Shown here: one piece after another, positions 2,932 through 18,664 of the stretch | Numbering within the stretch: the stretch's first letter is position 1 | Layout of the letters: each line of letters begins with the position of its first letter | Virus record (IMG/VR): IMGVR_UViG_3300031998_000037 | DNA: 64,000 nt | Direction: 5' to 3' (one strand) | Source: a virus | Taxonomy: Duplodnaviria > Heunggongvirae > Uroviricota > Caudoviricetes | Position numbers and translations under genes: made by a program | The notes under the pieces: generated by a model | The model's database searches: none | What the model saw: only the letters and a program-made list of their open reading frames with translations | Told to the model about the DNA's origin: nothing

Positions 2932-3285
2932 ATGAGTAAGTTTATACGTACAGAAACTTATACATATCTGAATGAAGAATATTTTGAAAAGGGCGGCATC
3001 TATTATATCTACAACACTTTTGGCATGGAGTATATCGCTGTATGCACTGGCAAGAAGCCTGATGGTATACATCTTGTAAAAGTTTATAATTTGCCTATAG
3101 AGCAAAAGGACGAGACAGTTATTATACCAGACGATGAGATTATAATGAATGACAGCAATGTTTCATCATTTAAGACCTGTGAGAGAATTGAGCTTAAAGA
3201 AGATACCGACAAGTATGATCGCACAATTTCTTTCTTCTTTAAATTCTCTGCAAAGAAAGACGAGAAAAAGTCTGATGATGAATAA
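2932..3285 (+). CDS. hypothetical protein
   Basis: ORF with RBS AGGAGG. Confidence 0.35.
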   Translation: MSKFIRTETYTYLNEEYFEKGGIYYIYNTFGMEYIAVCTGKKPDGIHLVKVYNLPIEQKDETVIIPDDEIIMNDSNVSSFKTCERIELKEDTDKYDRTISFFFKFSAKKDEKKSDDE

Positions 3286-3884
3286 GAAAGATTGGACAGG
3301 CAATAAGACTTCTGTATTCTCTACATTAGCTGCAAGTAGTCATTCAAAAGATGATAGAGCAAATGACGACTATTATTGTACCCCCCCCCTATGCGGTTGA
3401 GGAACTTCTAAAACGTGAGACATTCAGCACTTATGTTTTAGAGCCTTCCGTTGGCGGAGGGCATATTGCAGAAGTCCTTGAAAGAAACGGTCATAAGATA
3501 CAAGCCTTTGATATTGTAGATCGTGGATATAACAAAACAGAAGTAAGGGACTTCTTAAATGTATCAAAAGAAGATGTCAAGTTTTCCCCTGATATCATCA
3601 CAAATCCTCCATATGCTTTGGCAAAAGAATTTGTTGAACACGCACTTGATATTTCTATGGACAGCACAAAGGTTGCAATGTTTCTTAAAATACAGTTCCT
3701 TGAAAGCAAGAAGCGGTATGAATTATTTAAGAAATATCCACCACGAAAAATATACGTGTTTGTTAACCGCGTTAATTGTGGTAAGAATGGTGTTTTTGGC
3801 AAAGAGTCAAGTGCTGTATGCTATGCATGGTTTGTATGGGTAAAGGGTTATAAAGGCTGTCCACAGGTAGATTGGATAGCATAA
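3275..3884 (+). CDS. phage Dam-family N6-adenine DNA methyltransferase, interrupted by a frameshift at a C9 tract (3381-3389); C8 would give the intact protein
   Basis: N-part 'DDYYCTPP' is in frame 2 and the C-part '...DIITNPPYALAKEF...' in frame 0, joined only across the poly-C; close paralog of the intact ORF 14571-15167. Confidence 0.7.
3381..3389. repeat. poly-C homopolymer (9 nt) inside a methyltransferase gene; candidate slipped-strand phase-variation tract
   Basis: seen in sequence; GC homopolymers this long are otherwise very rare in this AT-rich window. Confidence 0.8.
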
Positions 3885-3895
3885 GGAGATATAAG

Positions 3896-4318
3896 ATGAA
3901 AGTTTATAGAGTTGAAAACCCAAGTGAAGAACATGGACTTTGGCGCAACTTTGACGGTTCTCCATGTGATGTTTTTGAAAAACTTAAAGTTGGCAAATGT
4001 CGTGAAATGCCGATGCCCGATAATGATTTTTATAGGCGAGAGGGAAAGCGTTGGTTTTCCGCAACTGATGCTCCTGAAAAATTAAAGGCATGGTTTGATG
4101 TCTTTGACGTTATACAACTTTGTGAATTAGGGTATAAGGTTTATGAATTTGAGGTTGAATATGCTAAACCTGTAAATGAGTTTGAAGTTGTTTTCACGCG
4201 AGATTTAATTACTTCGTCAACTGCCATTGAACCATCTACTATTTGGAATGATTATGATACGGCAAAAAAATTTTTGACTTGTTGTTGCTGTGACTGTGAG
4301 GATTGTTATGCAAATTAA
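3896..4318 (+). CDS. hypothetical protein (C-terminal Cys cluster CCCCDCEDC)
   Basis: ORF; start placed at the ATG after AGGAG. Confidence 0.35.
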   Translation: MKVYRVENPSEEHGLWRNFDGSPCDVFEKLKVGKCREMPMPDNDFYRREGKRWFSATDAPEKLKAWFDVFDVIQLCELGYKVYEFEVEYAKPVNEFEVVFTRDLITSSTAIEPSTIWNDYDTAKKFLTCCCCDCEDCYAN

Positions 4319-5453
4319 TTGTGATAATGCTGCACAAAAGCCTTTAACCGAATCAGTAAAGCGAACCATAGTTAACTTTATTGATAATGAATTTGGCAAT
4401 CCTTCATCTATATATTCTAAAGGGCGCAACGCTAAACGTGCTCTTGAAGAAGCAAGAAGTCAGATTGCAGAATCAATAGGGGCTGACACAGACGAAATTT
4501 ATTTTACAAGTGGTAGCACCGAGGCAATCAACTGGCTTTATCATTCAACCAACAAACATATTCTGATTTCACCTATAGAGCACAAAGCTATTCTAAAAGG
4601 GAATGAAAATTATGATGGTATCTCTTACGGTTTGGACGTTAAACAAAATGGCGTTATAGATATTGAAAAACTTAAATATCTTTGTAATTGGGTACATGAC
4701 GATGGGGTTGCTATCATAGGTTGGGTAAATAATGAGATCGGTACAATTCAGCCTATAAAAGAAATAGCTAATATTTGCCACGCAAAAGGCGTTGAACTAT
4801 TCGTTGATGCTTCACAAGCTATCGGGCATATACCAATTAATGTGCATGAAATCGGGATGGATTATATGTGCGGTTCATTTCAGAAAATAGGCGGTTTGGC
4901 TGGTAGCGGTTTCCTTTATATAAAAAAAGGCAAAGGGTTCAATCCTATGTTATCTGGCGGATCACAAGAACGCGGCATGAGAGCTGGGACTGAAAACCTT
5001 TTAGGGGTAATGTGTGGTGCAACCGCGATATCCGAAGCAACTAAAAATCTAAGTGATAAAGTCTCCAGACAAAAAGAAATTCAAAGCAAAATTATCTCTG
5101 AACTTCTGAAACTCCCCAAAACACATTTGAATGGCGACTTATGTAATAGAGTTGCAAGCAATGTGAATATATGCTTTGAGGGTATTGAGGCTGAAAGTCT
5201 TGTGCTTCTGCTTGATTTAGATAATATTTGTGTTAGCAGTGGCTCTGCCTGTAACTCAGGTGATGTTAAGCCCAGCCATGTTTTGAAGGCGATAGGTCTT
5301 AGTGATGATAATGCTAAAGCAAGTATACGTATCACCTTTGATGACATGACGGATGATGAAATTGATTATCTTGTAGAGCGAATAAAGGCAAGAGTTAGTC
5401 AGTTAAGAGATATGTCCCCTAAATGGAAGGAGATATTCAATGCAAGTAATTGA
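4308..5453 (+). CDS. cysteine desulfurase (IscS/NifS family, class V aminotransferase)
   Basis: aligns along its whole length with IscS as recalled from memory: 'FTSGSTEAINW', 'NNEIGTIQPI', PLP lysine in 'SFQKIGG', 'SGGSQERGMRAGTEN', catalytic Cys in 'SSGSACNSGDVKPSHVLKAIGL', 'SIRITFDD..EIDYLVERI'. Confidence 0.8.
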   Translation: MQINCDNAAQKPLTESVKRTIVNFIDNEFGNPSSIYSKGRNAKRALEEARSQIAESIGADTDEIYFTSGSTEAINWLYHSTNKHILISPIEHKAILKGNENYDGISYGLDVKQNGVIDIEKLKYLCNWVHDDGVAIIGWVNNEIGTIQPIKEIANICHAKGVELFVDASQAIGHIPINVHEIGMDYMCGSFQKIGGLAGSGFLYIKKGKGFNPMLSGGSQERGMRAGTENLLGVMCGATAISEATKNLSDKVSRQKEIQSKIISELLKLPKTHLNGDLCNRVASNVNICFEGIEAESLVLLLDLDNICVSSGSACNSGDVKPSHVLKAIGLSDDNAKASIRITFDDMTDDEIDYLVERIKARVSQLRDMSPKWKEIFNASN

Positions 5454-5871
5454 AAATAAATATAACTCTGAGTCGCAAAAGGTAAAGTGTGAAGGATGCT
5501 CCAGCACATTTATAATTGATGAGTCAGATTTGAATATAGGCACATACGGCTGCAAGTTCTGGTCTTGTCCATATTGCGGTCAACAAAACTTGATTGACGA
5601 CAGTATTGAACTTACAGAAAGCAACTTTCAATTCCCTCAACACTTTGCAAGTTATAAAAATGGCAAACAGATAAGTAAAGATACTTTGCAAAAATGGGCG
5701 CAAGAAGCTTTATCCTTGCTTGACAAAGATCACAGTTTTGCTCTTCATGCCAGTGGTAATAGTCTTGTGTTTGCCTTTAAATCAGATTATGACGCACATG
5801 AGGCATCTGTGATAGTTTGTGATAACGGCTATTACGAAACCTATGTTAGTTTGCCAGAGGATAGGTTTTAA
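5440..5871 (+). CDS. hypothetical zinc-ribbon protein
   Basis: CEGC...CPYCG motif. Confidence 0.35.
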   Translation: MQVIENKYNSESQKVKCEGCSSTFIIDESDLNIGTYGCKFWSCPYCGQQNLIDDSIELTESNFQFPQHFASYKNGKQISKDTLQKWAQEALSLLDKDHSFALHASGNSLVFAFKSDYDAHEASVIVCDNGYYETYVSLPEDRF

Positions 5872-5971
5872 TACACAAATTCCAGTTTATAATATGGCAA
5901 ACGCCATGTTATATAGGCGTGTGATATTCACACAAAACACAATTTCCATAGAAAGGGTATGGTGATACACA

Positions 5972-6634
5972 ATGAAGAACTATTCTTCTAAAATCCGAAG
6001 TCTCCTCGCAAGAGGGACGAAAGCATTAGCATTAACATCTGTCTTACTCGCTACTGTAAGCTGCTCTCACGGTAAGACGGACACAGACACTTCCAGCAGC
6101 AGAAATGAGGTGACAACGACTTGTACAACTTCTACAACGACATCTACCTCTACAACATCAACAACGTCCTCTACGACAACAAGCACCGAGACAACGACGG
6201 CTGCGACGACGATGCCGACAACAACAATGATGACTGTGCAGGAGAATATTCAAGTGACTGAGTCTGTATATGTTGCTCCTGTTCAAGAGTATATTGAACC
6301 TGTGAACAGCAATCTTCCTATTACTGAGCGTGAAAGGGTTTTACTTTGTAATATTGTTGCAAATGAATATGGCTCAGACTGGGTAAGCGTCTATGACAAA
6401 GCTTGTGTTGTGGCAACTGTTATGAACCGTGTAAATAGCTCGCAATTCCCAAATGATATAGAAAGTGTCCTGACACAACCTCGTCAATTTACTGGCTATT
6501 GGGCAAGCGATAGTTATTATAGCACTGTTACAGACAGTTGCATAGAGGCAGTTGATTATTACTTTGCTCATCAAAATGAATTTGGTAATTACTTATATTT
6601 TGAAGGCGATGGGCGAGTGAATTATTTTCATTAA
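5972..6634 (+). CDS. secreted/lipoprotein cell-wall hydrolase (SleB/Hydrolase_2-like) with a Thr/Ser-rich linker
   Basis: signal peptide with a lipobox-like 'LATVSC', ~60-aa T/S low-complexity stretch, and C-terminal 'VVATVMNRVNSSQFPNDIESVLTQPRQFTGYW' that resembles the SleB family. Confidence 0.5.
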   Translation: MKNYSSKIRSLLARGTKALALTSVLLATVSCSHGKTDTDTSSSRNEVTTTCTTSTTTSTSTTSTTSSTTTSTETTTAATTMPTTTMMTVQENIQVTESVYVAPVQEYIEPVNSNLPITERERVLLCNIVANEYGSDWVSVYDKACVVATVMNRVNSSQFPNDIESVLTQPRQFTGYWASDSYYSTVTDSCIEAVDYYFAHQNEFGNYLYFEGDGRVNYFH

Positions 6635-6680
6635 ACAAAAATCCCCGACTTATGTCGGGGAGAAAGGAACACAAAGATGC

Positions 6681-6899
6681 ATGACAGCTAAACGAATGTA
6701 TTTATGGTCTGTGCATTACAGGGACGAAGTTGAACGCAGCATTGAATACTATAACTACATAAATTTGAAACAACCTGTATGGACAAGACCTTTAACAGAG
6801 ATAGAAAAGAAAGAGATTTTCGGTGGCAATCCGAATTACATAAAGAACATAGGCAGAAATGACGGACACGAATGGAGGCTATTGAATGATAATAATTGA
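6681..6899 (+). CDS. hypothetical small protein
   Basis: ORF. Confidence 0.3.
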   Translation: MTAKRMYLWSVHYRDEVERSIEYYNYINLKQPVWTRPLTEIEKKEIFGGNPNYIKNIGRNDGHEWRLLNDNN

Positions 6900-7560
6900 C
6901 AAAGCAGACGTATGCGGCTGGCAATCCGCTATTCGTGGCATGAGAAATCCTATGAATAGTTGGGATAAGTCTGACAGCCTTTATATGACGGTAAATGATA
7001 TTGTAGGGCATCCATGTGATGATGGCATGAAAGAAGAATTTGTTGTTGGCAATGATGACTTAAATTTAATGAAACGTCTTGTTAAAGCTGGCTCAGATCA
7101 CAGCAAGTTTATGCGAATGATAAATGTAACTTGCGATATTACAGCTCCTTTGTATTGGTGGAAGGAATTTGATACTTATAAGGTAGGCACTGTCAGAAAT
7201 AGCTGCTCGACCATGCATAAGATACACGCAAAACAATTTGAAATTGATGATTTTTCTTGTGATAAGCTTGACTCAAAATCATTAAAAGTTCTTCATTATA
7301 TTATTAACTATCTTAATGGCATGAGAGAATGGCACAACAATACTGAACCAAGTTTAAAAAAAGATGCATGGTGGCAAATGATACAACTCCTTCCGAGTTC
7401 CTATAATCAAAAGGCTACAGTTCAGATAAATTATGCTGTGCTTAGAAATATGTATCATAGTCGTCGTACACATAAGCTTGACGAATGGCATACATTTTGC
7501 AAATGGGTTGAAGATTTACCATACAGTGAATTAATTACAATGGAGGATAAGAATGGCTAA
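6886..7560 (+). CDS. divergent ThyX-fold (flavin-dependent thymidylate synthase-like) protein lacking the canonical RHR motif
   Basis: by-eye alignment to ThyX: 'LMKRLVKAGSDHSKFMRMINVTCDITAPLYWWKEF' versus 'L..L.KHGHETPFEH..FTF.V.APIFVARQWFRHR', and C-terminal 'LRNMYHSRRTHKLDEWHTF' versus 'NLRADSHAQWEI'; the RHR position reads DTY/TYK. Confidence 0.4.
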   Translation: MIIIDKADVCGWQSAIRGMRNPMNSWDKSDSLYMTVNDIVGHPCDDGMKEEFVVGNDDLNLMKRLVKAGSDHSKFMRMINVTCDITAPLYWWKEFDTYKVGTVRNSCSTMHKIHAKQFEIDDFSCDKLDSKSLKVLHYIINYLNGMREWHNNTEPSLKKDAWWQMIQLLPSSYNQKATVQINYAVLRNMYHSRRTHKLDEWHTFCKWVEDLPYSELITMEDKNG

Positions 7561-8104
7561 ACCACTAATAGCAATACTTGGTGTTTCAGGCAGCGGCAAG
7601 ACCTCTCTCGTAAATAAGATTAGTAAGAAATATGGGCGCACTGTTTTGAAGTCTTATACAACACGTAAGCCGCGAGAGGGTGACGATACCGATTTAACAT
7701 CGCATGAGTTTATTACAATGCAAGAAGCTGCATTTATTGCAGAAAACGATAAGATTATAGCAAGCAATTGGTTTGATGGTAACTTTTATTTTGCCACTAA
7801 GAGTCAGCTTGATAAGGCAGACCTGTATGTGGTAGATGTTGCAGGATTAAAAGCTCTGTATCGTAACTATTTTGAGCGTCCAATTTTAAGTGTACTTCTT
7901 AGCGTTGACAGTTCTATTGTTGCTGAAAGAATGGCAAAGCGCGGCGATACAAACGAAGCCATTTTTAAACGCTTGCAGCACGACAGCGAAGCCTTTAAAG
8001 ACGCAACAGATTATGTTGATTTTGTATGCACTAACTTTAATCAAGATCAGTGCAATGACAATGTGGAGTTTATAGAGTTTTTATTTCGCAATTATAAGGG
8101 GTAA
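7553..8104 (+). CDS. P-loop nucleoside/deoxynucleoside monophosphate kinase-like protein
   Basis: Walker A 'GVSGSGKTS'; size 183 aa; sits among nucleotide-metabolism genes. Confidence 0.5.
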   Translation: MAKPLIAILGVSGSGKTSLVNKISKKYGRTVLKSYTTRKPREGDDTDLTSHEFITMQEAAFIAENDKIIASNWFDGNFYFATKSQLDKADLYVVDVAGLKALYRNYFERPILSVLLSVDSSIVAERMAKRGDTNEAIFKRLQHDSEAFKDATDYVDFVCTNFNQDQCNDNVEFIEFLFRNYKG

Positions 8105-8107
8105 GAG

Positions 8108-8311
8108 ATGGTAATAGGTTATTTTGACGGCTCATATGAGAGTTTTAATTTGGTACATCAATTAGATGATAGAGAGATACCCTATGAAGCCAAGAACCAG
8201 CAAGACGCACATGAGTTTGGCTTTTATGATTTGCCAATGCTGGTTGTCGGCAATAAGGTTTTGAATTATAAGAGAGCCTTGAAATGGTTAAAGAAACAAA
8301 AGGGGGATTGA
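8108..8311 (+). CDS. hypothetical small protein
   Basis: ORF. Confidence 0.3.
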   Translation: MVIGYFDGSYESFNLVHQLDDREIPYEAKNQQDAHEFGFYDLPMLVVGNKVLNYKRALKWLKKQKGD

Positions 8312-8312
8312 C

Positions 8313-8513
8313 ATGGTTACATTATATACAATAGACTGCCCTAAATGTAAAATTCTTGAAAAAAAACTTAACAATGCAAATATAAACTATCTTATAGTTA
8401 AGGACAGGGATGAAATAAAAGCAAAGGGTATGGACTTAATGCCAGTCTTAGAGGTCGATGATATTAGAATGAATTTTAAGCAAGCTTGCGATTGGGTTAA
8501 CGAGAGGAGCTAA
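8313..8513 (+). CDS. glutaredoxin-like protein (NrdH-like redoxin)
   Basis: 66 aa; CPKC active-site motif near the N-terminus; immediately upstream of nrdD. Confidence 0.55.
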   Translation: MVTLYTIDCPKCKILEKKLNNANINYLIVKDRDEIKAKGMDLMPVLEVDDIRMNFKQACDWVNERS

Positions 8514-8517
8514 GACT

Positions 8518-10479
8518 ATGGCAAAAAAACAAACATCTACTATAAACGTTGGTATTACTTTAGATAAAGATTTTATTACCCAATACAATAAACTTCAAGC
8601 TGAGTACGGCACAGACATAGCAAGACTTAATGGCTTCGGTGACGATCAGCTTTCATATACAGATTTTATTGATAATTTTATTGATGATGATACAATTGCA
8701 GACGTAAGTATTGACGGCAATAGTAATGTCAGAAGAAAAGATATCGTGACACTGATAACAGAAATGCCAAAACCACACAGAAAGCTTCTTGCCTATAATA
8801 AGATTTACTATGAGTTCAAGAAAAAGTATGGCTTTAAGGCAGCAAATACGTGGCTTGAATATGAATGGTCTGGCAAGCTTTATCTCCATGACGCTGACAC
8901 TTCTTCTATGAAGCCTTACTGTTTTGCCTATGACCTTAAAGACCTTGCTGAAAGAGGGTTGTATTTCTTAGGCATAAACAATACTCAGCCAGCACAGCAC
9001 CTTACTACATTTGTTGATTTTGTAAAGGAGTTTATCTCTTTTGCAAGCAACAGAAGTAGCGGTGCGGTAGGCTTACCAAATATAATCCCGTATATGTTCT
9101 ATTATTGGCGCAAAGATGTCAAGTCTGATTATCTCGGAGTAAGAACAAGCGGCAATGAAAAGAAGTATGCTATTCAGAATTTCCAGAGATTTATCTACGC
9201 TGTCAATCAGCCGTGTGTACGTGATGGTCAGCAGTCAGCCTTTACCAATACAACTGTCTTTGATCGTCCTTACTTTGAAGCTCTTTTCGGCGGAACTGAG
9301 TTTCCTGACGGATCGTTTATGATTGATGCCGAAGAAGAAATAATTGAGTTTCAGAAATGGTATATGGAGACAATGGCTGAAATACGCAGCGAGAATATGT
9401 TTACATTCCCCGTATCAACTATTTCTCTTATTCGCAAGAACGGTAAGTTTGAGGATGAGGAATTTGCACATTGGGCAATTCGCCACAATATGAAGTGGTG
9501 CGATAGCAATATGTTTATTGACAAGGACGTAACTTCACTGTCAAATTGTTGTCGCCTTAAATCTCAGATTGATAACCTCGGCTACTTTAACAGTATCGGT
9601 GGAACAGCTTTAAAGGTTGGTTCAGTCAAAGTTGGCACAATCAATCTGGCTCGTATTGCACTTGATACTGAAAATGAAACTGAGTATCTTACAGAACTTA
9701 AAAAGCGTACCCTTATTGACTTAAAGGTACTTGATATAATCAGAGGCATTATAAAGAGAAATGTTGACAAGGGGCTTCTGCCTAACTTTACTTATGGGCT
9801 AATTGACTTTAAACATTTATATAATACAGTGGGCTTTACTGGTGTATATGAGAGCATGAAAAAGTTTGGCTATATCTCACGCGACTTATTCAATAATGTT
9901 TCCTATACAGAACAAGCCGAAAAGTTTGGTAAGAAGATATTCGATACCATACGCAAGACCGCCGATAAGTTCCTTGAAGATAACACTTGCGATTATCTTG
10001 TTTCACTTGAACAATCACCTGTAGAACAAGCGGCAAGCAAACTGATTCGTAAGGACAAGTTCTTCTATCCTGAGTCTGACATCTACGATTTGCCCGTATA
10101 TGGTAATCAGTTTATGCCACTCGGCATCAAGTCAATCTTACAAGAGAGAATAAGGGTTCAGGCTTTATTTGATGGTTTCTGTTCTGGCGGCAGCATACTT
10201 CATGCCAACATTGAAACGCCTTTTGACAGTTATGAAAAGGCATTGGCAATGACAGAGTATGTCGCAGATCAGGGGGTAACATACTTTGCATGGAACACAA
10301 AGATTTCTGCCTGTGAACATAATCACGCATTTCATGGCAAGATTTGCCCAAAGTGTGGTAAGCCTGTAAAAACAGAGTATACCCGTGTAGTCGGTTTTTA
10401 TACGCCGATTGAAAGCTGGTCAAGTGACCGTAAGGCGGAATATAAATTAAGACAATGGGAGGTAGTGAATGAAACTTAA
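8518..10479 (+). CDS. nrdD: anaerobic ribonucleoside-triphosphate reductase (class III RNR)
   Basis: 653 aa; C-terminal Zn-ribbon 'CPKCGKP' followed by the glycyl-radical motif 'TRVVGFYTP'. Confidence 0.75.
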   Translation: MAKKQTSTINVGITLDKDFITQYNKLQAEYGTDIARLNGFGDDQLSYTDFIDNFIDDDTIADVSIDGNSNVRRKDIVTLITEMPKPHRKLLAYNKIYYEFKKKYGFKAANTWLEYEWSGKLYLHDADTSSMKPYCFAYDLKDLAERGLYFLGINNTQPAQHLTTFVDFVKEFISFASNRSSGAVGLPNIIPYMFYYWRKDVKSDYLGVRTSGNEKKYAIQNFQRFIYAVNQPCVRDGQQSAFTNTTVFDRPYFEALFGGTEFPDGSFMIDAEEEIIEFQKWYMETMAEIRSENMFTFPVSTISLIRKNGKFEDEEFAHWAIRHNMKWCDSNMFIDKDVTSLSNCCRLKSQIDNLGYFNSIGGTALKVGSVKVGTINLARIALDTENETEYLTELKKRTLIDLKVLDIIRGIIKRNVDKGLLPNFTYGLIDFKHLYNTVGFTGVYESMKKFGYISRDLFNNVSYTEQAEKFGKKIFDTIRKTADKFLEDNTCDYLVSLEQSPVEQAASKLIRKDKFFYPESDIYDLPVYGNQFMPLGIKSILQERIRVQALFDGFCSGGSILHANIETPFDSYEKALAMTEYVADQGVTYFAWNTKISACEHNHAFHGKICPKCGKPVKTEYTRVVGFYTPIESWSSDRKAEYKLRQWEVVNET

Positions 10480-10942
10480 AGGTTTGATTGACGAGGATTT
10501 TGTGAATTATAAAAAGCCCTCTATGTTTATATCAACCTATACTTGTTCATTCAAATGTTGCGAGGAATGTGGTCAAGCGGTATGCCAAAACTTACCGCTT
10601 GTATCACAGCCTACAATTGAGGTTGATAATGCAGATTTGGCTGTGCGCTACCTTAATAATGATATAACCCATGCTGTTGTTATCGGCGGACTTGAACCAT
10701 TTGACGACTTTGCAGATTTAAACCGTTTTGTCACTTGTTTTCGTTCTTTCTGCAATGACGATATAGTGATCTATACTGGCTACAATGAAGATGAAATAAA
10801 GCATTATGTTGATAAGCTTAGATGGGTTCACAACCTTTACATTAAATATGGCAGATATATCCCTAATCAGCAGCCGCATTATGATGCCGCCCTCGGTGTT
10901 AAGCTTGCAAGCGACAACCAGAAAGGAGTTAAGGTATGCTGA
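10469..10942 (+). CDS. nrdG: anaerobic RNR activating protein (radical SAM)
   Basis: 157 aa directly downstream of nrdD, overlapping it; Cys cluster 'CSFKCCEEC' and 'GGLEP' motif. Confidence 0.6.
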   Translation: MKLKGLIDEDFVNYKKPSMFISTYTCSFKCCEECGQAVCQNLPLVSQPTIEVDNADLAVRYLNNDITHAVVIGGLEPFDDFADLNRFVTCFRSFCNDDIVIYTGYNEDEIKHYVDKLRWVHNLYIKYGRYIPNQQPHYDAALGVKLASDNQKGVKVC

Positions 10943-11133
10943 GAATAATAAAGAACCCCGATGAAGAAATGTTCAAAGAAGTTCTGACAGCAGTTAAGGC
11001 TAACGATTTATACTGTCCGTGCCGTTTGGAGCGCACACCAGATACTAAATGTCCGTGCAAAGAGTTTCGCGATCAGCGAACAGAAGGGGAGTGCAACTGC
11101 GGGCTTTATGTAAAGGTGCAAGAAGATGATTGA
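10936..11133 (+). CDS. small Cys-rich protein
   Basis: CPC...CPC...CNC. Confidence 0.3.
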   Translation: MLRIIKNPDEEMFKEVLTAVKANDLYCPCRLERTPDTKCPCKEFRDQRTEGECNCGLYVKVQEDD

Positions 11134-11329
11134 TGATACTGTTGCAAACTATTTCCCAATAAACAATAACTTCTTGCTTTGGGTAACACATAAAACAACC
11201 GATGGTCAGTTGTGGTATGTCGTTTCAGATTTGTTTCGGAATGAGTATTACTTATTTAAAGGTAAGCGGCAGTTAAGATATAAAAGTGAAAATCCATTAG
11301 ACCTATACAAATATATAAAGGAGAAATGA
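11126..11329 (+). CDS. hypothetical small protein
   Basis: ORF. Confidence 0.3.
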   Translation: MIDDTVANYFPINNNFLLWVTHKTTDGQLWYVVSDLFRNEYYLFKGKRQLRYKSENPLDLYKYIKEK

Positions 11330-11330
11330 T

Positions 11331-11570
11331 ATGAGCTATTACTGCGAAGTTTGCGGTCATATAGGTGGTCACGCTTACGGCTGCCCAGAAGCACCATCGC
11401 CCAAACCTGTAACATATTGTACCTACTGCGATGAGCCTTTATATATCGGTGATGAAGCTTATCAAGCTGGTAATGATATTTATTGTGCTCAGTGCTGCGG
11501 TAGGATTGAAATAGAAGAGCCTGAAAGAGACTGGGATTTTGAGATAGATAAAAGGAGAGAGAATGAGTAA
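11331..11570 (+). CDS. small zinc-binding protein (multiple CxxC)
   Basis: CEVCGH, CTYCDE, CAQCCG. Confidence 0.35.
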   Translation: MSYYCEVCGHIGGHAYGCPEAPSPKPVTYCTYCDEPLYIGDEAYQAGNDIYCAQCCGRIEIEEPERDWDFEIDKRRENE

Positions 11571-12515
11571 CGAAAATCTAAGAATGGCACGAAAGATTAA
11601 GAATGATGAGTTCTATAGCCGCTATGAAGATATAGAAAAAGAGCTTGTCCATTACAAAGATCAGCTACGCGGCAAGATTGTTTATTGCAACTGTGATATT
11701 CCTGAGAGCAACTTTGTCAAGTTCTTGAATGATGTCAAAGACGAATGGGGCATTCAAGATGTATGGCATACCTCGCTTGACGAGGGTATAAGCTTTGATA
11801 GTGATTATGCGAAAGACTTACTAAGCAAATGTGATGTGGTCATAACAAATCCTCCATTTTCAATCACAAGAGAAAGGTTCGTTCCTATGCTTGAAGAAAG
11901 CGGCAAACAGTTTCTCTTTATAGGCAATCTAAATATGGCAACTATGCGAGAAATATTTCCGCTGATCCGTGACGGCAAACTATGGACAGGCTATACGCAC
12001 CCTAAAGAGTTCCTACAGCCAGATGGCACATACAAAAAGTTTGGTAATTGTTTATGGTGGACTAATATGCCTGTAGAAAAAGAGTTTAGGCTTGACACAT
12101 CAAAAAAGTATTATGGTAATGAAAGTAAATATCCTCACTATGATAATTATGATGCCATTAATGTTGATAGAGTTGCTGATATTCCTTCAGATTATTCAGG
12201 CGTGATTGGCGTACCCGTTACGTTCATTGAACATTATACCCCCACCCCGACAAGATAGGAGGGGACTTCGGCTCAGTATTGTCGGATTTAGAAAGGGAGC
12301 AGACGGCAAAGACCTTCACGCCAACGGAAGATATTATTACGGCAGATACCTTATCGTTATTGGATCATAGATGTGATCTATATAACGAAGTAGGTAGGGG
12401 GGGGTACGACATACATACTTCCATCGCTTGCTCATTAAGAGTCGTTGACGCATTGAACTGTCCAAGTTTAAATAATGAAAAGATATTTAAAAGATTAATG
12501 ATAAGGAGATTATAA
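11563..12515 (+). CDS. N6-adenine DNA methyltransferase (NPPF motif), split by a frameshift at a C5AC4 tract (12239-12248); also carries an in-frame G8 tract (12397-12404)
   Basis: 'CDVVITNPPFS' motif IV. The frame-1 ORF stops at 12258, but frame 0 is open from 12231 to 12515, so a +1 C would fuse them to ~317 aa. Confidence 0.55.
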
Positions 12516-12517
12516 GA

Positions 12518-13044
12518 TTGAGCTTTTCAGAGTCGATAAAGACAAGCTTAGGAGGAGATGAATATTATACTCCTTCTAATGCGGTAGAAATGATTTTACC
12601 TGTGCTGCGCAAGCATAATTTTTCAAAAGTCTGGTGTCCATTTGATACTGCCGAAAGTAATTTTGTTGTAAAACTCAGCAAAGAATTTGAAGTAGTATAC
12701 GGTCATATTTATACTGGACAAGATTTCTTTGAATATGATACCCCCCCGAAGGTGTGGAATGTGTAGTAAGCAATCCGCCATTTAGTAAAAGAAATGATAT
12801 ATTTAAGAGGCTGTTTGAATGGGATATACCTTTTGCTCTTATTATGAATATGAACGGCATCTTTGATAGCAAAGAAAGATATGATTTGTTTAAAGATAAA
12901 CAGGTTGAGTTCTTTATACCAAAGGGTAGAATGAAATTCTTTACGCCTGATGGTGTTACAAAAAACTCGCCTAATTTTCAGAGTATTTATATTTGCAGTA
13001 AATTATTAGATAAACAACTTGAATTTTCTGAAAGTGAATTTTAA
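12518..13044 (+). CDS. phage Dam-family N6-adenine DNA methyltransferase, interrupted at a C7 tract (12741-12747); C8 would restore the frame
   Basis: N-part 'EYYTPSNAVE...YDTPP' (frame 2) and C-part 'ECVVSNPPFSKRNDIF' (frame 1) meet only across the poly-C. Confidence 0.65.
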
Positions 13045-13769
13045 AGGAGATGTAATGAGTAATATACAACTTTTTCAAGGGGACTGCTTGGAACTTATGA
13101 AAGATATACCAGACAAAAGTGTGGATTTAATTTTGACAGATTTACCTTACGGAACAACAGCTTGTAAGTGGGACAGCATAATTCCATTTGATTTACTATG
13201 GGGGGGGGTACGACCGTATCATAAAAGACGATGGTTGCATTGCTTTGTTTGGTAGCGAACCATTTTCTACGATGTTAAGATATAGCAATCTGAAGCATTT
13301 TAAATATGATTGGATATGGGAGAAAGAACAGGGTGCTAATTTTATGCTTTGTAAATATCAGCCCTATAAAGTACATGAAGTCATTTCTATCTTTGGCAAT
13401 AAGAAGATGCGTTATTATCCGCAAATGACCGCTGGCAAACCTTATATATCAGGCAAGGGTACAAGTGGTGATATTACAAACAATGTACCAAAGATACAGA
13501 CAGTTAATTCGGGTACAAGATATCCGCGAAGCATTCAAAAATTTAACACTCAAAAAAATCACTCGGTTCATCCAACTCAGAAGCCAGTGCCACTACTTGA
13601 ATACCTTATTAAGACCTATACAATTGAGGGTGACACAGTATTAGATAGTTGCATGGGCAGTGGCAGCACGGGCGTAGCTGCCGTCAATACAAATCGCAAC
13701 TTTATTGGCATGGAACTTGATGAGAAATATTTTCAGATTGCACAAACCAGAATTAAGGAGGCAACATAA
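13019..13769 (+). CDS. beta-class N6A/N4C DNA methyltransferase, interrupted at a G9 tract (13200-13208); G8 would restore the frame
   Basis: 'LILTDLPYG' motif IV first, then 'HPTQKP', then 'CMGSGSTG' motif I at the C-terminus. N-part 'FDLLWGG' is in frame 2 and C-part 'GGGYDRIIKDDG' in frame 0. Confidence 0.7.
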
Positions 13770-14011
13770 TGAAAGACTATTTCGGGCATAAGATAAATAT
13801 AGGCGACATTGTTCTATACAACGAACGCGGCTCAAAAGGATATCGCTCTTCCTTTAGTGAAGGAACTGTGATTGAATTTGTTGGCAAAACAAAAGTAAAA
13901 ATTAAAAACGATTCAAGCTTTTGGGCAGCAACTAAATATCCAGAAAACACAGTTGATCTTACAGCTCTTGATATAAGACAAAAGGTAACACTTAATGAAG
14001 ATAGCGTTTGA
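13769..14011 (+). CDS. hypothetical protein
   Basis: ORF. Confidence 0.3.
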   Translation: MKDYFGHKINIGDIVLYNERGSKGYRSSFSEGTVIEFVGKTKVKIKNDSSFWAATKYPENTVDLTALDIRQKVTLNEDSV

Positions 14012-14570
14012 TTTAGATAGTGTTTGCGTAAATACAGTTGACGCGATTATAGAGTACATAAATGAGCGAGTGCCTGTAAATCTGAAAGTTGATGATATCA
14101 CTTCCTACAATATTGAATCAGCTTTACCAGAGCAATTTCAATGGATTGTAGACGCAGGTTTCCGTGACTCAAAAATGTGGAAGAAAGTAAAACTGTTGCC
14201 GCGATGTGCCGAAATCATGGAGAAGCTTTACAAAGAGGGCTATGAGATTTGGTTTGCCACATCATCGCTGCCTGAGAATATGCGCAAGAAGATAAAACAC
14301 TTGGCTCGTAATATGCAATTCTTTCCTGAGCATTATGTGTGGCAGCACACTATCAATATTCAGGACAAGTATTTGCTTAATGTTGATGTGCTTGTAGACG
14401 ATTGCCTGAAACACGCAATTCACCCTGATAGATTGTATTGGTCTATTATCATGGACTACCCGTGGAATAGATTATCTGAGCCTGTAGAACGCACAGTACG
14501 AGCATATGATTGGGATTGGATATATGAAAAGATACATATGATAGACAACATACTAAAGGAGGATAAGTAA
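13995..14570 (+). CDS. HAD-family 5'(3')-deoxyribonucleotidase-like (NT5C-type)
   Basis: N-terminal 'IAFDLDSVC' (DxD nucleophile motif) and a later 'LVDDC'. Confidence 0.45.
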   Translation: MKIAFDLDSVCVNTVDAIIEYINERVPVNLKVDDITSYNIESALPEQFQWIVDAGFRDSKMWKKVKLLPRCAEIMEKLYKEGYEIWFATSSLPENMRKKIKHLARNMQFFPEHYVWQHTINIQDKYLLNVDVLVDDCLKHAIHPDRLYWSIIMDYPWNRLSEPVERTVRAYDWDWIYEKIHMIDNILKEDK

Positions 14571-15167
14571 ATGGGCTTAACCGCAGCGAAGCTTGCTGGC
14601 AGTGATCCGACAAGAGGCAGAATGAAGAACGATTATTATGCTACCCCTCCCATTGCGACTGAACTTCTTTTGAAAGAAGTGAAACTATATGATGATACTA
14701 TTTTAGAACCAGCAGCAGGTGAAGGTCATATTGTTAAAGTGCTGAAAGAATTTTACCCTTATAATGAGATAACAGCTAATGATTTAGTTTACCGCAGTAG
14801 TCGTATAGGCATTGATGTGAACGGCGGCATAGATTTCCTTACATATGAACCACACCGCAAATTTGATACTATCATTACAAACCCACCTTTTAATCAGGCA
14901 AAAGAGTTTATTGAGAAAGCATTGACGCTTGCAAATCATTACGTCATTATATTTGCCAAGCTTCAATTTCTGGAGACTGTTGAACGCCGCAAGCTGTTTG
15001 ACGAATATCCACCTAAGTATGTTTATGTACATAGCCGTCGTGTTAGCCCGTATATAAATGGTGATCCTGTAGATGAAAAGGGTAAGCCGTGGGCAAGTCC
15101 TATGGCGTTTGCTTGGTTTGTGTGGGAGATAGATTATGAAGGAGAGACAACATTAAGATGGTTATAA
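14571..15167 (+). CDS. phage Dam-family N6-adenine DNA methyltransferase (intact)
   Basis: 'DYYATPP' and 'TIITNPPFNQAKEF'; paralog of the 3275-3884 gene. Confidence 0.7.
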   Translation: MGLTAAKLAGSDPTRGRMKNDYYATPPIATELLLKEVKLYDDTILEPAAGEGHIVKVLKEFYPYNEITANDLVYRSSRIGIDVNGGIDFLTYEPHRKFDTIITNPPFNQAKEFIEKALTLANHYVIIFAKLQFLETVERRKLFDEYPPKYVYVHSRRVSPYINGDPVDEKGKPWASPMAFAWFVWEIDYEGETTLRWL

Positions 15168-16988: not shown

Positions 16989-18062
16989 TCAAAAATTTTC
17001 TCTTTGTTTATCACGTTCAGCCTTTAACATAGCCCTAAAATAACTGTAACGGTTAGCGATATTTTGCTGTTCAGATATAGCATTAAAGTGAGTATATTGT
17101 TCCTGTAAATAATGATACCTTGCAAACCCAATGCCAAGAGGATGTTCAGGCATATCCGTAGAAAATACAATTGCAAGCAGACTTTCCATTTCTTTTACTG
17201 AAAATTCATTATTACAAGCACCTGAGAAAAAGTCAAGTTCAACATCTTGTGTCTCTATTTCTTCTTTAATCTTGTCAACATCAATTAAATCTGAAAATCC
17301 CTCAAAGATAGGAATTTGTTTTTGAGCTGGTTCATTTTTAGTGATAGTAAACACAATAGATATCCACCTACCACCTGCACCTGTCTTGCCGCGCTCATAG
17401 GTATAGCTAATGTCTGTAAGTTCCTTTAAAGCCTTTTGACAGCTATCGAGTACATACTTTTTAAATAAAGACCAACCATTTTTATTTGAATATTCAGTTT
17501 CGGCAATACCGAGCAATTCTCTAAGTTCTTTTACAGGTATCTCTCTCTTCCCTATATTCTCGTATTGTTTTAAAATTTCATACATTCTAATTTGATTTGC
17601 TGATTTAAGGATCAGTGCATTCCAAAGTTCGTACTTAAAATATCTCTCTTTAAAATCAAACATTAAAGGCAATGCTTTATCGTGGGCATCTATCTGAACA
17701 TACCATTCGCCGTCCTCATTCTTATCAACTTCACATTCTTTAAAAAGCTGAAATCCAGAATATCCGCCACTCTCTTTTGGTATATTGACAACCTTACAAA
17801 GTAAGCTATTAGTGCTTGATTTAAGTTGCTGAATATTCATTCTACTAAACCCCATGATCTTCTGGAAGTCAGACAGTGGGAATCGAACAATTCTTGTTGA
17901 CTCATCTCTGGGGTTTATCTTAGATAGATAAATCGAAAAAAAGCGTAACTCTTGTAAGGATAGATTATTGGCTCTAATCTCGTTAAGGATATTTCTTTTT
18001 TCTACTATAGCTCCCTCATAAATAGTAGACATATATATCACCTCAATATTATTATAACACAC
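16989..18062 (-). CDS. rep: plasmid-type replication initiator (RepA_N-like)
   Basis: 357 aa whose N-terminal region resembles Firmicute theta-plasmid RepA_N; iterons lie immediately upstream. Confidence 0.6.
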   Translation of the reverse strand: MCYNNIEVIYMSTIYEGAIVEKRNILNEIRANNLSLQELRFFSIYLSKINPRDESTRIVRFPLSDFQKIMGFSRMNIQQLKSSTNSLLCKVVNIPKESGGYSGFQLFKECEVDKNEDGEWYVQIDAHDKALPLMFDFKERYFKYELWNALILKSANQIRMYEILKQYENIGKREIPVKELRELLGIAETEYSNKNGWSLFKKYVLDSCQKALKELTDISYTYERGKTGAGGRWISIVFTITKNEPAQKQIPIFEGFSDLIDVDKIKEEIETQDVELDFFSGACNNEFSVKEMESLLAIVFSTDMPEHPLGIGFARYHYLQEQYTHFNAISEQQNIANRYSYFRAMLKAERDKQRENF

Positions 18063-18063
18063 A

Positions 18064-18215
18064 TTCTATAGATTGTCAATGCTATCTATAGTATTATGCA
18101 ATGAAATCTATAGAATCGTGCAATACAATCTATAGTATCTTGCAATGAAATCTATAGAATTGTGCAATACAATCTATAGAATTGTGCAATACAATCTATA
18201 GAATCGATTCCGCAA
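18064..18215. repeat. iteron array: ~7 tandem 22-bp repeats (consensus AATCTATAGAATYGTGCAATAC)
   Basis: counted by eye at 22-bp periodicity, directly upstream of rep; 2 further copies at 18411-18448. Confidence 0.8.
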
Positions 18216-18410
18216 AGGTGCTATTTTAGGTCGTTTACGATAACCGAAAATATATATAAAATAAATAAAATACTTCTAAAACATCTTTCAAACTATCATG
18301 GAGCAAAAACTGATATTAATTTAAGACTTAAAGAAATAAAATTGGCAAAACAACCAAAACATAAATATAAAATTCATTATCAAACGAATTATAAAGTACA
18401 ATTCAATCAT
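18216..18410. other. AT-rich spacer between iteron groups (putative DNA unwinding element/origin)
   Basis: extreme AT content between the two iteron sets. Confidence 0.5.
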
Positions 18411-18448
18411 CTATAGAATTGTGCAATCAAATCTATAGAATTGAAAAT
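18411..18448. repeat. two additional iterons (ATCTATAGAATTG...)
   Basis: same repeat family as 18064-18215. Confidence 0.7.
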
Positions 18449-18652
18449 TAATGTCCGTAATTTAGAAAATCAATGTCCGTAATTAAAACTTTATGTTAAA
18501 ATTAAATGGCATTATTTGATGACTAAATTTGTCTTTTGCAGATAAATGTCCTATTTTATTATACGCAAAATAGGCAAGAAAAACACTTTGCAGAAATCTG
18601 TCCTATTTAGAAAATCAATGTCCGTAATTAAGAAAATTTATGTCCGTAATTA
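18447..18652. repeat. parS-like repeats: 4 copies of ATGTCCGTAATTA plus 2 degenerate TGTCCTATTT copies, downstream of parB
   Basis: copies at 18447, 18469, 18617 and 18639; the pairs are spaced 22 bp apart. Confidence 0.6.
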
Positions 18653-18664
18653 ATCTTGTTTAAC

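What the first reader, a model, noticed from the sequence alone, without database searches (positions are those of the whole stretch)
3275..15167. Five-methyltransferase arsenal with four genes switched OFF at G/C homopolymer tracts: a candidate phage-borne phase-variable methylome
Within 12 kb there are five DNA MTase genes: four Dam-family (DYYxTP...NPP[YF]) and one beta-class (DLPY...HPTQKP...FxGxG). Four of them are interrupted exactly at long G/C homopolymers (C9, C5AC4, C7, G9), and a fifth G8 tract sits in-frame. These are the only G/C runs of 7 or more that I found in this AT-rich 64-kb window. Each gene is restored by a single-unit tract change, and the required direction is mixed (-1, +1, +1, -1), which argues against a systematic homopolymer under- or over-call. 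The pattern matches slipped-strand phase variation as used by Campylobacter, Helicobacter, Neisseria and Haemophilus phasevarions. Here it would let a phage population hedge its methylation pattern against host R-M systems, or tune its own epigenetic regulation.
Basis: partly seen in the sequence, partly recalled or inferred. Interest (0 to 1): 0.9.

Follow-up and report, generated by a model that had tools for sequence, protein, structure and literature searches.

The report
Phage-plasmid methyltransferases switched by homopolymer tracts
A rumen phage that also replicates as a plasmid carries five DNA-methylating enzymes, four of which are turned on or off by one-base length changes in runs of C or G, so the virus population can probably gamble on different DNA-methylation patterns.

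Summary
The window's only G/C runs of 7 or more lie in a five-gene DNA methyltransferase (MTase) arsenal. C9, C5AC4, C7 and G9 each break one MTase reading frame. The element is a roughly 100-kb phage-plasmid from ruminant metagenomes.

Comparative evidence supports evolved hypermutable tracts rather than sequencing error or gene decay:
- Four assemblies of the identical strain show identical tract lengths.
- Sister strains (95-97% identity) carry other lengths (g1 C7/C8/C9; g3 C7/C8/C9; g4 G7/G9/interrupted 8), including intact genes of exactly the predicted sizes.
- No coding-region indel between strains lies outside these tracts. Coding A7/A8 runs never vary.
- The tracts use the genome's rarest codons. 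More distant tract-free homologues spell the same or neighbouring residues differently.
- The broken genes show pN/pS of 0.03-0.21 and no other lesions.

- The genes are not Dam-family.
- g2 regains its canonical C-terminus by -1, not +1.
- The G8 lies in an alternative-frame extension of g2.

Relatives show g2-type genes carry two or three alternative C-terminal modules in different frames, separated by repeats.

Within-population switching and methylation changes remain untested. This is a new variant of a known kind.

The parts
3275..3884 (+). g1: orphan N6-adenine-type DNA MTase (DDYYCTPP ... LEPSVGGGHI ... TNPPY). It is OFF in the window. C8 would give 202 aa.
   Evidence: PHROG 799 at E = 1e-64. 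Frames read. Intact 202-aa alleles P0001 and P0134 are 96% identical.
3381..3389 (+). C9 tract in g1, spelling T-P-P as ACC CCC CCC plus one extra C.
   Evidence: Allelic series in relatives: C7 (OFF), C8 (ON), C9 (OFF), C8+AT (OFF), C9+AT (ON), interrupted ACCCCTCCC (ON). Tract-free relatives read ACTCCGCCC or ACACCGCCG. None of about 85 more distant homologues has a C run longer than 4 here.
11563..12370 (+). g2: EcoRI-like adenine MTase (PF13651), short-form reading. As sequenced it stops at 12258 (231 aa, truncated). A -1 change gives 268 aa with the family's C-terminal module.
   Evidence: Pfam 216 bits. The homologue in L170 aligns through the C-terminus only in the -1 reading. 268/269-aa genes are called in L184, L186 and L181.
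12239..12248 (+). Composite tract C5AC4 at the point where the g2 frames branch.
   Evidence: Alleles: C5AC4 (truncated; window), C4AC4 (short form ON; L184, L186), C4AC7 (short form ON; L181), C8 (long form in frame, 344 aa; L359).
12231..12515 (+). Alternative-frame (+1) open reading frame. It overlaps the 3' end of g2 and runs to the ribosome-binding site of g3. It would be the C-terminal part of a 'long form' of g2. In the window clade, 114 nt of its canonical module are missing in frame.
   Evidence: In relatives its non-overlapping part has pN/pS of 0.03-0.16 in this frame, against about 1 in another frame and no synonymous changes in the third. That part equals the canonical PF13651 C-terminus. 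Long-form proteins exist in several diverged clusters.
12397..12404 (+). G8 tract inside the long-form-specific part of g2. It is in frame in that reading.
   Evidence: G8 in most strains. G9 through an A>G change in L181. G4 (-5 nt, breaks the frame) in L184. G8 in L360, a relative about 80% identical in these genes, and G9 in L376.
12257..12264 (+). AGGAGGGG just after the branch tract. In the short frame it reads as the tandem rare codons AGG-AGG, and it also resembles a Shine-Dalgarno sequence. It is a possible +1 ribosomal frameshift site. In other lineages a G7/G8 tract occupies this spot.
   Evidence: AGG is 10% of Arg codons, and there are 0 AGG-AGG pairs in 45 other genes. L374 has G7 here (long form) and L274 has G8 (short form). 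The frameshift role is inference only.
12518..13044 (+). g3: small MTase (DEYYTP ... SNPPFS). It is OFF in the window. C8 would give 175 aa.
   Evidence: PHROG 799 at E = 1e-27, with a borderline PF13651 hit. 175-aa genes are called in L184 and L186.
12741..12747 (+). C7 tract in g3 (T-P-P).
   Evidence: C7 OFF (window, L359); C8 ON (L184, L186, L360); C9 OFF (L181). The tract-free homologue in L277 reads TTT CCT CCA. Homologues at 56% identity have no tract.
13055..13769 (+). g4: beta-class N6A/N4C DNA MTase (DLPY ... TQKP ... GSGSTG). It is OFF in the window. G8 would give 237 aa.
   Evidence: PF01555 at E = 6e-29 and PHROG 67 at E = 3e-78. Solved relatives are DpnA, CcrM, M.RsrI and M.MboIIA. 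A 237-aa gene is called in L184.
13200..13208 (+). G9 tract in g4. It replaces the conserved W-E-Q-Y with W-G-G-Y.
   Evidence: G9 OFF (window), G7 OFF (L181), GGGAGGGG ON (L184). About 95 homologues read TGGGAACAATAT or a similar tract-free sequence at this site. Only L016 also has a tract here (G7, also frameshifted).
14571..15167 (+). g5: intact MTase of the g1 type without any tract. It is presumably always ON.
   Evidence: PHROG 799 at E = 7e-59. The identical protein occurs on 23 contigs. There are 0 non-synonymous against 4-11 synonymous differences between strains.
16989..20664 (-). Plasmid maintenance module: Rep3 initiator 16989-18062, ParB 18665-19867 and ParA 19867-20664. Together with the virion genes it makes the element a phage-plasmid.
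   Evidence: Pfam. Portal, large terminase and tape-measure genes lie elsewhere in the window.

Best explanation
The window is part of a roughly 100-kb phage-plasmid from the ruminant gut. The host is probably a Clostridia/Eubacteriales anaerobe.

Its replication and nucleotide-metabolism region holds an arsenal of five orphan DNA MTases. Four of them contain evolved, hypermutable G/C homopolymer tracts placed on Pro-Pro or Gly-Gly codons.

Proposed mechanism:
- Slipped-strand mispairing during replication changes a tract by one or two bases.
- This moves the downstream catalytic or C-terminal part in or out of frame.
- Each MTase therefore switches ON or OFF independently and reversibly.
- For g2, the switch is among a short form, a long form and a truncated form.

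In the sequenced strain all four are OFF and only the tract-free g5 is ON.

What is shown:
- The tracts are present, and they are derived relative to tract-free homologues.
- Tract length varies among close strains, and ON alleles exist.
- The genes are under purifying selection.
- There is no other coding indel between strains.

What is inferred:
- Switching is frequent within a population.
- It changes the methylation of phage and host DNA.
- The benefit is bet-hedging. Methylation protects against restriction-modification systems in one host but exposes the DNA to methylation-dependent restriction, or carries a cost, in another.
For: 1. Co-localisation. All four G/C runs of 7 or more lie in the MTase cluster, each at a frame break or in the g2 extension.

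2. Reproducibility. The same strain is 100% identical over 3.7 kb in ERZ27257204, JGI 3300028914, SRR9008937 and SRR9008936, and all four have identical tract lengths.

3. Length polymorphism at the same sites in strains 95.5-96.4% identical, including ON alleles of the predicted sizes.

4. Indel census. Against L181 there are 6 indels in 12 kb, 3 of them at tracts. Against L184 there are 5, 4 of them at tracts. Against L179 there are 3, 1 at a tract. None of the rest interrupts a gene: they lie between genes, one at the junction of two adjacent genes. Coding A7/A8 and G5/C5 runs keep their length.

5. Codon choice. CCC is 9.5% of Pro codons and GGG is 7.4% of Gly codons. None of 10 Pro-Pro pairs and none of 70 Gly-Gly pairs elsewhere uses CCC-CCC or GGG-GGG.

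6. Derived state. The L277 relative (about 76-77% nucleotide identity in these genes) has intact, tract-free g1, g2 and g3 and a more divergent g4-type gene, and spells the same Pro-Pro at the g1 and g3 sites with other codons. Wider homologues lack tracts at these sites, and in g4 the tract overwrites a conserved Glu-Gln.

7. Purifying selection. pN/pS is 0.03-0.21 for g1-g4, similar to neighbouring genes (0.00-0.26). There are no internal stops. This holds even between two OFF alleles of g1 (33 synonymous against 5 non-synonymous changes).

8. Rate. L367 and L368 differ at 2 positions in 16,972 bp, and one is a G9/G8 change in an MTase gene. Contigs L369 and L370 end at another G9 tract.

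9. Generality. G/C runs of 7 or more are enriched in homologues of these MTases. In loci chosen through NrdD, 3 of 10 runs fall in 0.58% of the sequence (P = 2e-5). In close-family loci, 18 of 34 fall in 12.5% (P = 2e-8).
Against: - No read-level data were available, so heterogeneity within one population is not shown.
- The four assemblies of the window strain all carry the same all-OFF lengths. Switching is therefore not fast enough, or not selected, to change the consensus. The four samples may also not be independent.
- The g2 tract is interrupted (C5AC4) and should slip less often.
- L184 carries an interrupted, probably locked-ON g4 tract. L184 also has a collapsed G4 in the g2 extension, which shows that some tracts decay.
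- No methylation data exist, and no restriction genes were identified that would define the selective pressure.
Confidence: 0.8

Rival explanations
1. Homopolymer miscalls in sequencing or assembly: the genes are really intact and the frameshifts are artefacts.
For: The breaks lie exactly at homopolymers, the classic site of such errors. All the data are metagenome assemblies.
Against: - Identical lengths were recovered in four assemblies made with different pipelines (ENA megahit-style, JGI, Logan).
- Longer A/T runs (A8, A9, T8) do not break genes, and coding A7/A8 runs do not vary.
- The required corrections go in both directions.
- Error cannot explain why the tracts exist only in MTases and are built from rare codons.
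Confidence: 0.03
2. Gene decay: the MTases are dispensable cargo being lost, and G/C runs are simply where inactivating mutations hit first. There is no selected reversibility.
For: - All four genes are OFF in the window strain.
- The MTase cassette is gained, lost or replaced among strains. L177 and L183 lack g2-g4. L179 and L182 carry a different MTase in its place. L186 lacks g4.
- Some tracts are interrupted or collapsed.
Against: - pN/pS is 0.03-0.21 with no second lesion in any OFF gene, including an OFF-versus-OFF comparison.
- Each OFF allele is one slip away from ON.
- ON alleles with tracts exist.
- The tracts are derived, and were created against codon bias. In g4 the tract was created against a conserved Glu-Gln.
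- The same design recurs in several gene families and lineages.
Confidence: 0.1
3. Recoding rather than switching: ribosomal +1 slippage at CCC-C or AGG-AGG, or transcriptional slippage on the runs, yields full-length enzyme from the 'OFF' alleles. The genes would then be expressed constitutively at a tuned low level, or as two products.
For: - Tandem rare AGG-AGG codons, which also resemble a Shine-Dalgarno sequence, sit exactly at the g2 branch, and the long frame is +1 from the short frame.
- L360 and L277 keep the long-form module under selection without a branch tract.
- From established knowledge: CCC-N sites and tandem AGG codons are prone to +1 frameshifting in bacteria.
Against: - Recoding needs one fixed tract length. 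Instead, lengths of all three frame classes occur among close strains.
- The window needs -1 at some sites and +1 at others.
- Recoding may well add leakiness, but it does not explain the polymorphism.
Confidence: 0.07

Closest known systems
Phasevarions and other phase-variable bacterial MTases with simple sequence repeats (Type III mod genes of Haemophilus, Neisseria, Helicobacter and Moraxella; Type I hsdS/hsdM repeats such as NgoAV; Type IIG cj0031 of Campylobacter)
   Same: A repeat tract inside an MTase gene changes length by slippage and switches the enzyme on or off. In NgoAV it changes the form of the specificity subunit. The result is alternative methylomes in one population (reviews read; the list of examples is from my own knowledge).
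   Different: - The genes here are solitary Type II-like MTases with no restriction or specificity partners nearby.
- They are carried by a phage-plasmid rather than a chromosome.
- Four sit in one element, each with its own tract.
- No regulon effect has been shown.
Hypermutable polyG tracts in Campylobacter Fletchervirus phages (Sorensen et al. 2021, Cell Rep 35:109214) and contingency loci in T2/T4 (bioRxiv 10.1101/2025.10.21.683753)
   Same: Homopolymer tracts in phage genes create reversible frameshift variants as a bet-hedging device.
   Different: - The genes reported there are receptor-binding proteins and, in T-even phages, genes in other functional categories. The preprint's main text never uses the word 'methyltransferase'.
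- Here the targets are DNA-modification enzymes.
- The T-even tracts counted are runs of 6 or more. Here the runs are G/C 7-9 in a 38% G+C genome, and they are confined to one functional class.
PolyG tract in a methylase gene of Bordetella phage BPP-1 (Liu et al. 2004, J Bacteriol 186:1503, as cited in the 2025 preprint)
   Same: A phage methylase gene carries a polyG tract.
   Different: That was a single gene, mentioned in passing and 'not studied further' according to the preprint. There was no arsenal, no allelic series and no alternative C-termini. I did not read the 2004 paper itself.
Multispecific phage C5-cytosine MTases of Bacillus phages (SPR, phi3T, rho11s)
   Same: Phage MTases that hold several target-recognition modules in one gene (my own knowledge). 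PF13651 homologues with 2-3 tandem C-terminal modules in one frame exist. A relative, L367, has a C5-MTase with repeated TRD-like units.
   Different: In the classical enzymes all modules are in one frame and act together. In g2-type genes the modules lie in different frames separated by repeats, so only one can be joined to the catalytic domain at a time.

Membership tests
Simple-sequence-repeat contingency (phase-variable) locus | A homopolymer or short repeat of mutable length (G/C of 7 or more) lies inside the coding region or promoter | tested here: met
   C9, C7 and G9 lie in the coding sequence of g1, g3 and g4. C5AC4 and G8 lie in g2 and its extension.
Simple-sequence-repeat contingency (phase-variable) locus | Tract length is polymorphic among closely related genomes while the flanks are conserved, and the length sets the reading frame | tested here: met
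   Three or more lengths occur at the g1, g3 and g4 sites, and three alleles at the composite g2 tract, among strains 95-97% identical. Called gene lengths follow the frame.
Simple-sequence-repeat contingency (phase-variable) locus | High-frequency, reversible switching occurs within a clonal population | not testable with these tools
   No reads were available. Indirect evidence: L367 and L368 differ at 2 positions in 17 kb, one of them a G9/G8 change, and two contigs end at a G9 tract. Against this, four assemblies of the window strain share one state.
Phasevarion (phase-variable MTase controlling a regulon) | The MTase belongs to a Type III (mod) or Type I (hsd) restriction-modification system | tested here: not met
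   Pfam and PHROG give PF13651, PF01555 and PHROG 799. No res or hsd genes lie among the neighbours, which are NrdD/NrdG, NT5C, dUTPase and HNH.
Phasevarion (phase-variable MTase controlling a regulon) | Switching changes genome-wide methylation and the expression of a gene set | not testable with these tools
   This needs methylome and transcriptome data from ON and OFF variants.
   No hit to either model at E <= 0.01 for g1, g2, g3 or g5. NCBIfam gives no hit for them either.
PF13651 EcoRI-like adenine MTase (g2) | Profile match above the gathering score, an NPPF catalytic motif and the C-terminal module F.I.G...NGK..Y.RI.I | tested here: met
   216 bits against a cut-off of 26.4. NPPFS is present. 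The -1 reading ends RLSIVGFRKGADGKDLHANGRYYYGRYLIVI and aligns to L170. The adenine target is inferred from the family name.
PF01555 beta-class N6A/N4C MTase (g4) | Profile match, with motif IV (D/S-P-P-Y type) lying before motif I (FxGxG) | tested here: met
   101.9 bits against a cut-off of 26.7. DLPY is at residue 29 and GSGSTG near residue 200. Solved relatives are DpnA, CcrM, RsrI and MboIIA.
Phage-plasmid | Virion and packaging genes together with a plasmid replication initiator and a partition system on one replicon | tested here: met
   Portal, large terminase and tape measure, together with Rep3, ParA and ParB. No integrase was seen in the strains closest to the window. Extrachromosomal replication itself has not been shown.

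The most novel reading that the evidence does not exclude
In g2-type EcoRI-like MTases the repeats do more than switch on and off. The catalytic domain is followed by two or three alternative C-terminal modules, probably for target recognition, written in different reading frames and separated by poly-C, poly-G or (AG)n tracts. Tract length would then choose which module is fused: a frame-coded specificity switch.

Combined with independent ON/OFF tracts in three other MTases, this would give a phage-plasmid a combinatorial, reversible methylome of about 24 states. In relatives, similar tracts occur in each repeat unit of a multi-TRD C5-MTase and in a PAPS-reductase-like gene.

Support:
- All three g2 states are seen in nature.
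- The dual-frame layout is conserved down to about 60% protein identity, with different tracts at the same branch point.
- Module 2 is under strong selection only in its own frame and has no start codon of its own.

Not shown: that the modules set sequence specificity, or that the long forms are made and active.
Probability: 0.35. Interest if true: 0.85.

Novelty: new variant of a known kind. Interest (0 to 1): 0.72.

Why it matters
Phage MTases are usually treated as fixed anti-restriction cargo. Phase-variable MTases are treated as a speciality of a few host-adapted bacterial pathogens.

If this reading holds, a common family of ruminant-gut phage-plasmids keeps a whole set of MTases under stochastic, heritable but reversible control. 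That would have several consequences:
- It extends contingency-locus bet-hedging from phage receptor-binding proteins to the phage epigenome.
- It offers a testable way for a mobile element to cope both with restriction-modification systems and with methylation-dependent defence across changing hosts.
- Because the element also lives as a plasmid, it could impose variable methylation on the host chromosome.

There are practical consequences too:
- Annotation pipelines will call these genes pseudogenes.
- Methylation-based host-linking of phage contigs may be unstable for such elements.
- The frame-coded alternative C-termini of g2 would be a new way to diversify MTase specificity.

Tried and rejected
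- A megablast of the 12.5-kb region against 50,697 GenBank phage records found nothing. The closest cultured relatives of the portal are Bacillus and Brevibacillus siphoviruses at about 28-31% identity.
- I first treated the G8 at 12397 as a promoter-spacer tract for g3. The consensus scan found no convincing promoter around it.
- I then asked whether the G8 region was a relic of a g4-like gene, because both tracts are followed by TACGAC. The alignment showed no homology beyond the tract. Both ideas were dropped in favour of the alternative-frame extension of g2.
- C7 runs in L028, L070 and L071 looked like g2-type sites but lie in an unrelated, in-frame gene.
- Pattern-based searches for g2 and g3 in IMG/VR returned few relatives. 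Exact-protein look-ups were what recovered the sister strains.
- NCBIfam gave no names for g1, g2, g3 or g5. PDB sequence searches gave nothing for g1 or g2.
- The AlphaFold2 model of a long form (P0154) was confident only for the catalytic domain. The linker had pLDDT 26-38 and module 2 about 50-57. It therefore neither proves nor disproves that module 2 docks like module 1.
- Host assignment is weak. The portal matches one Eubacteriales MAG contig of 122 kb and one short contig binned as Bacteroidota, probably mis-binned.
- Literature searches found no description of repeat-switched MTase arsenals in phages. The library lacks most subscription journals, so absence is not proof.

Full report
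**1. What is in the sequence**

The window has 37.7% G+C. Its only G or C runs of 7 or more are C9 (3381-3389), G8 (12397-12404), C7 (12741-12747) and G9 (13200-13208). There is also a composite C5AC4 at 12239-12248. From base composition I expect about 0.9 runs of 7 or more and about 0.18 runs of 8 or more (my arithmetic).

Three-frame translation and profile searches confirm five DNA methyltransferase (MTase) genes:

| Gene | Coordinates | Family match |
|---|---|---|
| g1 | 3275-3884 | PHROG 799 |
| g2 | 11563-12370 | Pfam PF13651 EcoRI-like, 216 bits |
| g3 | 12518-13044 | PHROG 799, borderline PF13651 |
| g4 | 13055-13769 | PF01555 beta-class; PDB relatives DpnA, CcrM, RsrI, MboIIA |
| g5 | 14571-15167 | PHROG 799, intact |

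g1, g3 and g4 change frame exactly at C9, C7 and G9. They are restored by -1, +1 and -1 to 202, 175 and 237 aa. g2 stops shortly after C5AC4.

**2. What the element is**

The window encodes a portal, a large terminase and a 2007-aa tape measure. It also encodes NrdD, and a Rep3 initiator with ParA and ParB. It is therefore a phage-plasmid.

Close relatives come from cattle and other ruminant metagenomes. A portal 87% identical lies on a 122-kb contig binned to a Eubacteriales MAG. No similar GenBank phage exists.

**3. Error, decay or switch?**

*Exact-protein look-ups recovered sister genomes.*
- The identical strain (100% over 3.7 kb) appears in four assemblies, with the same tract lengths in each. 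This argues against random miscalls.
- Strains 95.5-96.4% identical carry other lengths:

| Site | Alleles seen |
|---|---|
| g1 | C7 OFF, C8 ON, C9 OFF, C8+AT OFF, C9+AT ON, plus interrupted or tract-free ON alleles |
| g3 | C7 OFF, C8 ON, C9 OFF |
| g4 | G9 OFF, G7 OFF, GGGAGGGG ON |
| g2 | C5AC4 truncated, C4AC4 and C4AC7 short form ON, C8 long form |

- Gene callers report 202-, 268/269-, 175- and 237-aa products in those strains, exactly as predicted.

*Indels are confined to the tracts.*
- Against L181 there are 6 indels in 12 kb, and 3 are at the tracts.
- Against L184 there are 5 indels, and 4 are at the tracts.
- Against L179 there are 3 indels, and 1 is at a tract.
- None of the others interrupts a gene: they lie between genes, one at the junction of two adjacent genes.
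- Coding A7/A8 and G5/C5 runs never change length.

*The tracts go against codon usage.*
- CCC is 9.5% of Pro codons and GGG is 7.4% of Gly codons.
- None of 10 Pro-Pro pairs and none of 70 Gly-Gly pairs in 45 other genes uses CCC-CCC or GGG-GGG.

*More distant homologues lack the tracts.*
- The L277 relative (about 76-77% nucleotide identity in these genes) has intact g1, g2 and g3 and a more divergent g4-type gene, and has no tract. It spells the same Pro-Pro as CCG CCG or CCT CCA.
- About 85 g1 homologues and about 95 g4 homologues lack tracts at these sites. In g4 the tract overwrites a conserved Trp-Glu-Gln-Tyr.

*The broken genes are still under selection.*
- pN/pS is 0.03-0.21, similar to NrdD, NT5C and dUTPase, with no second lesion.
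- This holds even between two OFF alleles of g1 (33 synonymous against 5 non-synonymous changes).

*Evidence on rate, from a related phage-plasmid.*
- Two genomes differ at only two positions in 16,972 bp. One of the two is a G9/G8 change in a C5-MTase gene.
- Two further contigs end at another G9 tract.

These results fit evolved contingency loci. They speak against both artefact and simple pseudogenisation.

**4. Gene 2 and the G8**

The homologue in L170 aligns through the C-terminus only in the -1 reading, which gives 268 aa.

The +1 frame is nevertheless open from 12231 to 12515 and contains the G8 in frame.
- In L186, L359, L360 and L277 this frame continues into FNLYGITEENGKGLS...VNGKRIYTRLFI.
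- That sequence is the canonical C-terminus of PF13651 proteins.
- It has no start codon of its own.
- Its pN/pS is 0.03-0.16 in that frame, against about 1 in another frame and no synonymous changes in the third.
- In L359 a C8 tract puts the catalytic domain in frame with it, giving a 344-aa gene.
- Long forms occur in several diverged protein clusters.

At about 60% protein identity the same layout persists, with other repeats at the same branch point.
- L374 has G7 at the branch (long form). L274 has G8 at the same spot (short form).
- L376 has C8 and L377 has C11.
- L374 adds an (AG)n repeat followed by a third module in another frame. That third module is the in-frame end of P0165-type proteins.

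So g2-type genes look like three-state, or richer, frame switches among alternative C-terminal modules. In the window clade, 114 nt of module 2 are deleted in frame. L184 has lost most of the G tract there. The long form may therefore be decaying in this clade.

Tandem rare AGG-AGG codons at the branch could also allow +1 ribosomal frameshifting. This is inference only.

An AlphaFold2 model of a long form was confident only for the catalytic domain.

**5. Generality**

- G/C runs of 7 or more are enriched in homologues of these MTases, including in loci chosen through an unrelated gene (NrdD). There, 3 of 10 runs fall in 0.58% of the sequence (P = 2e-5).
- In-frame G9 and C8 tracts recur at fixed sites of g1 homologues in unrelated IMG/VR phages.
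- L367 carries eight G7-G9 tracts in 2.3 kb of a multi-TRD C5-MTase region. It also has two C8 tracts in a PAPS-reductase-like gene.
- The MTase cassette itself is gained, lost and replaced among strains.

**6. Comparison with what is known**

- Repeat-driven MTase switching is classical in bacteria, as phasevarions.
- PolyG phase variation in phages is known for Campylobacter phage receptor-binding proteins.
- A 2025 preprint reports contingency loci in T2 and T4. It mentions in passing a polyG tract in a Bordetella phage methylase.
- I found no description of a multi-gene, repeat-switched MTase arsenal on a phage or phage-plasmid. I also found none of frame-coded alternative MTase C-termini.
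- The library is incomplete, so this absence is not proof.

**7. Verdict**

Direct proof of within-population switching and of methylome change is missing. I rate it a new variant of a known kind.

Noticed in passing
window 12231-12515; L186:3260-3702; L359:19690-20084; L374:1501-2577; L376:1501-2577: g2-type EcoRI-like MTases carry two or three alternative C-terminal modules in different reading frames. The modules are separated by poly-C, poly-G or (AG)n repeats. All three frame states occur in natural contigs.
   Followed up: partly
L367:15399-17712 and L367:7371-8063: A related phage-plasmid has eight G7-G9 tracts within 2.3 kb of a C5-cytosine MTase region. The repeated TRD-like units (..IYS..GG..PTL..) each hold a tract. 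It also has two C8 tracts in a PAPS-reductase-like gene.
   Followed up: partly
L367 vs L368 (L367:16850); L369 and L370 ends at L367:16547: Two genomes 99.99% identical, from different samples, differ by one substitution and one G9/G8 tract change in 17 kb. Two other contigs stop at a neighbouring G9 tract, which hints at within-sample heterogeneity.
   Followed up: partly
window 11563-13769 versus L177, L179, L183, L186: The g2-g3-g4 cassette is a hot spot of gene-content change. It is absent in L177 and L183. In L179 and L182 it is replaced by a different 259-aa PF01555 MTase. In L186 g4 is missing.
   Followed up: partly
window 12257-12262: Tandem rare AGG-AGG codons, which also form a perfect Shine-Dalgarno-like AGGAGG, lie at the junction of the g2 short and long frames. 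They could promote +1 ribosomal frameshifting. No other AGG-AGG pair occurs in 45 genes.
   Followed up: no
L136:7587, L141:10163 (G9); L142:10287, L153:10275, L156:2613, L167:10284 (C8); L360:3534 (G8): g1 homologues in unrelated IMG/VR phages carry in-frame G8/G9 tracts in the SAM-binding motif (LEPxxGGG). They also carry C8 tracts at a fixed Pro-Pro site shortly before the NPPY motif.
   Followed up: partly
L016:10146-10152: A g4 homologue (75% identity) in a different 65-kb phage contig has a G7 tract at the same Trp-Gly-Gly-Tyr site and is also frameshifted. Closer homologues lack the tract, so this is either convergence or allele transfer.
   Followed up: no
window 60265-62904 (-): An 879-aa protein matches the Pfam RdRP family (PF05183). 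It is probably a YonO-like single-subunit RNA polymerase of the phage.
   Followed up: no
L165:10200-10215 versus L119: A g1 homologue in another phage is frameshifted at an A6 run, where near-identical contigs have A7. This may be an A-tract switch or an error.
   Followed up: no
window 4290-5453, 8518-10942, 13995-14570, 15551-16045, 16112-16699: The MTases sit among nucleotide-metabolism and modification-type genes: a class-V aminotransferase, NrdD with its activase, an NT5C-like nucleotidase, dUTPase and an HNH endonuclease. I did not examine whether any of these contributes to DNA modification.
   Followed up: no
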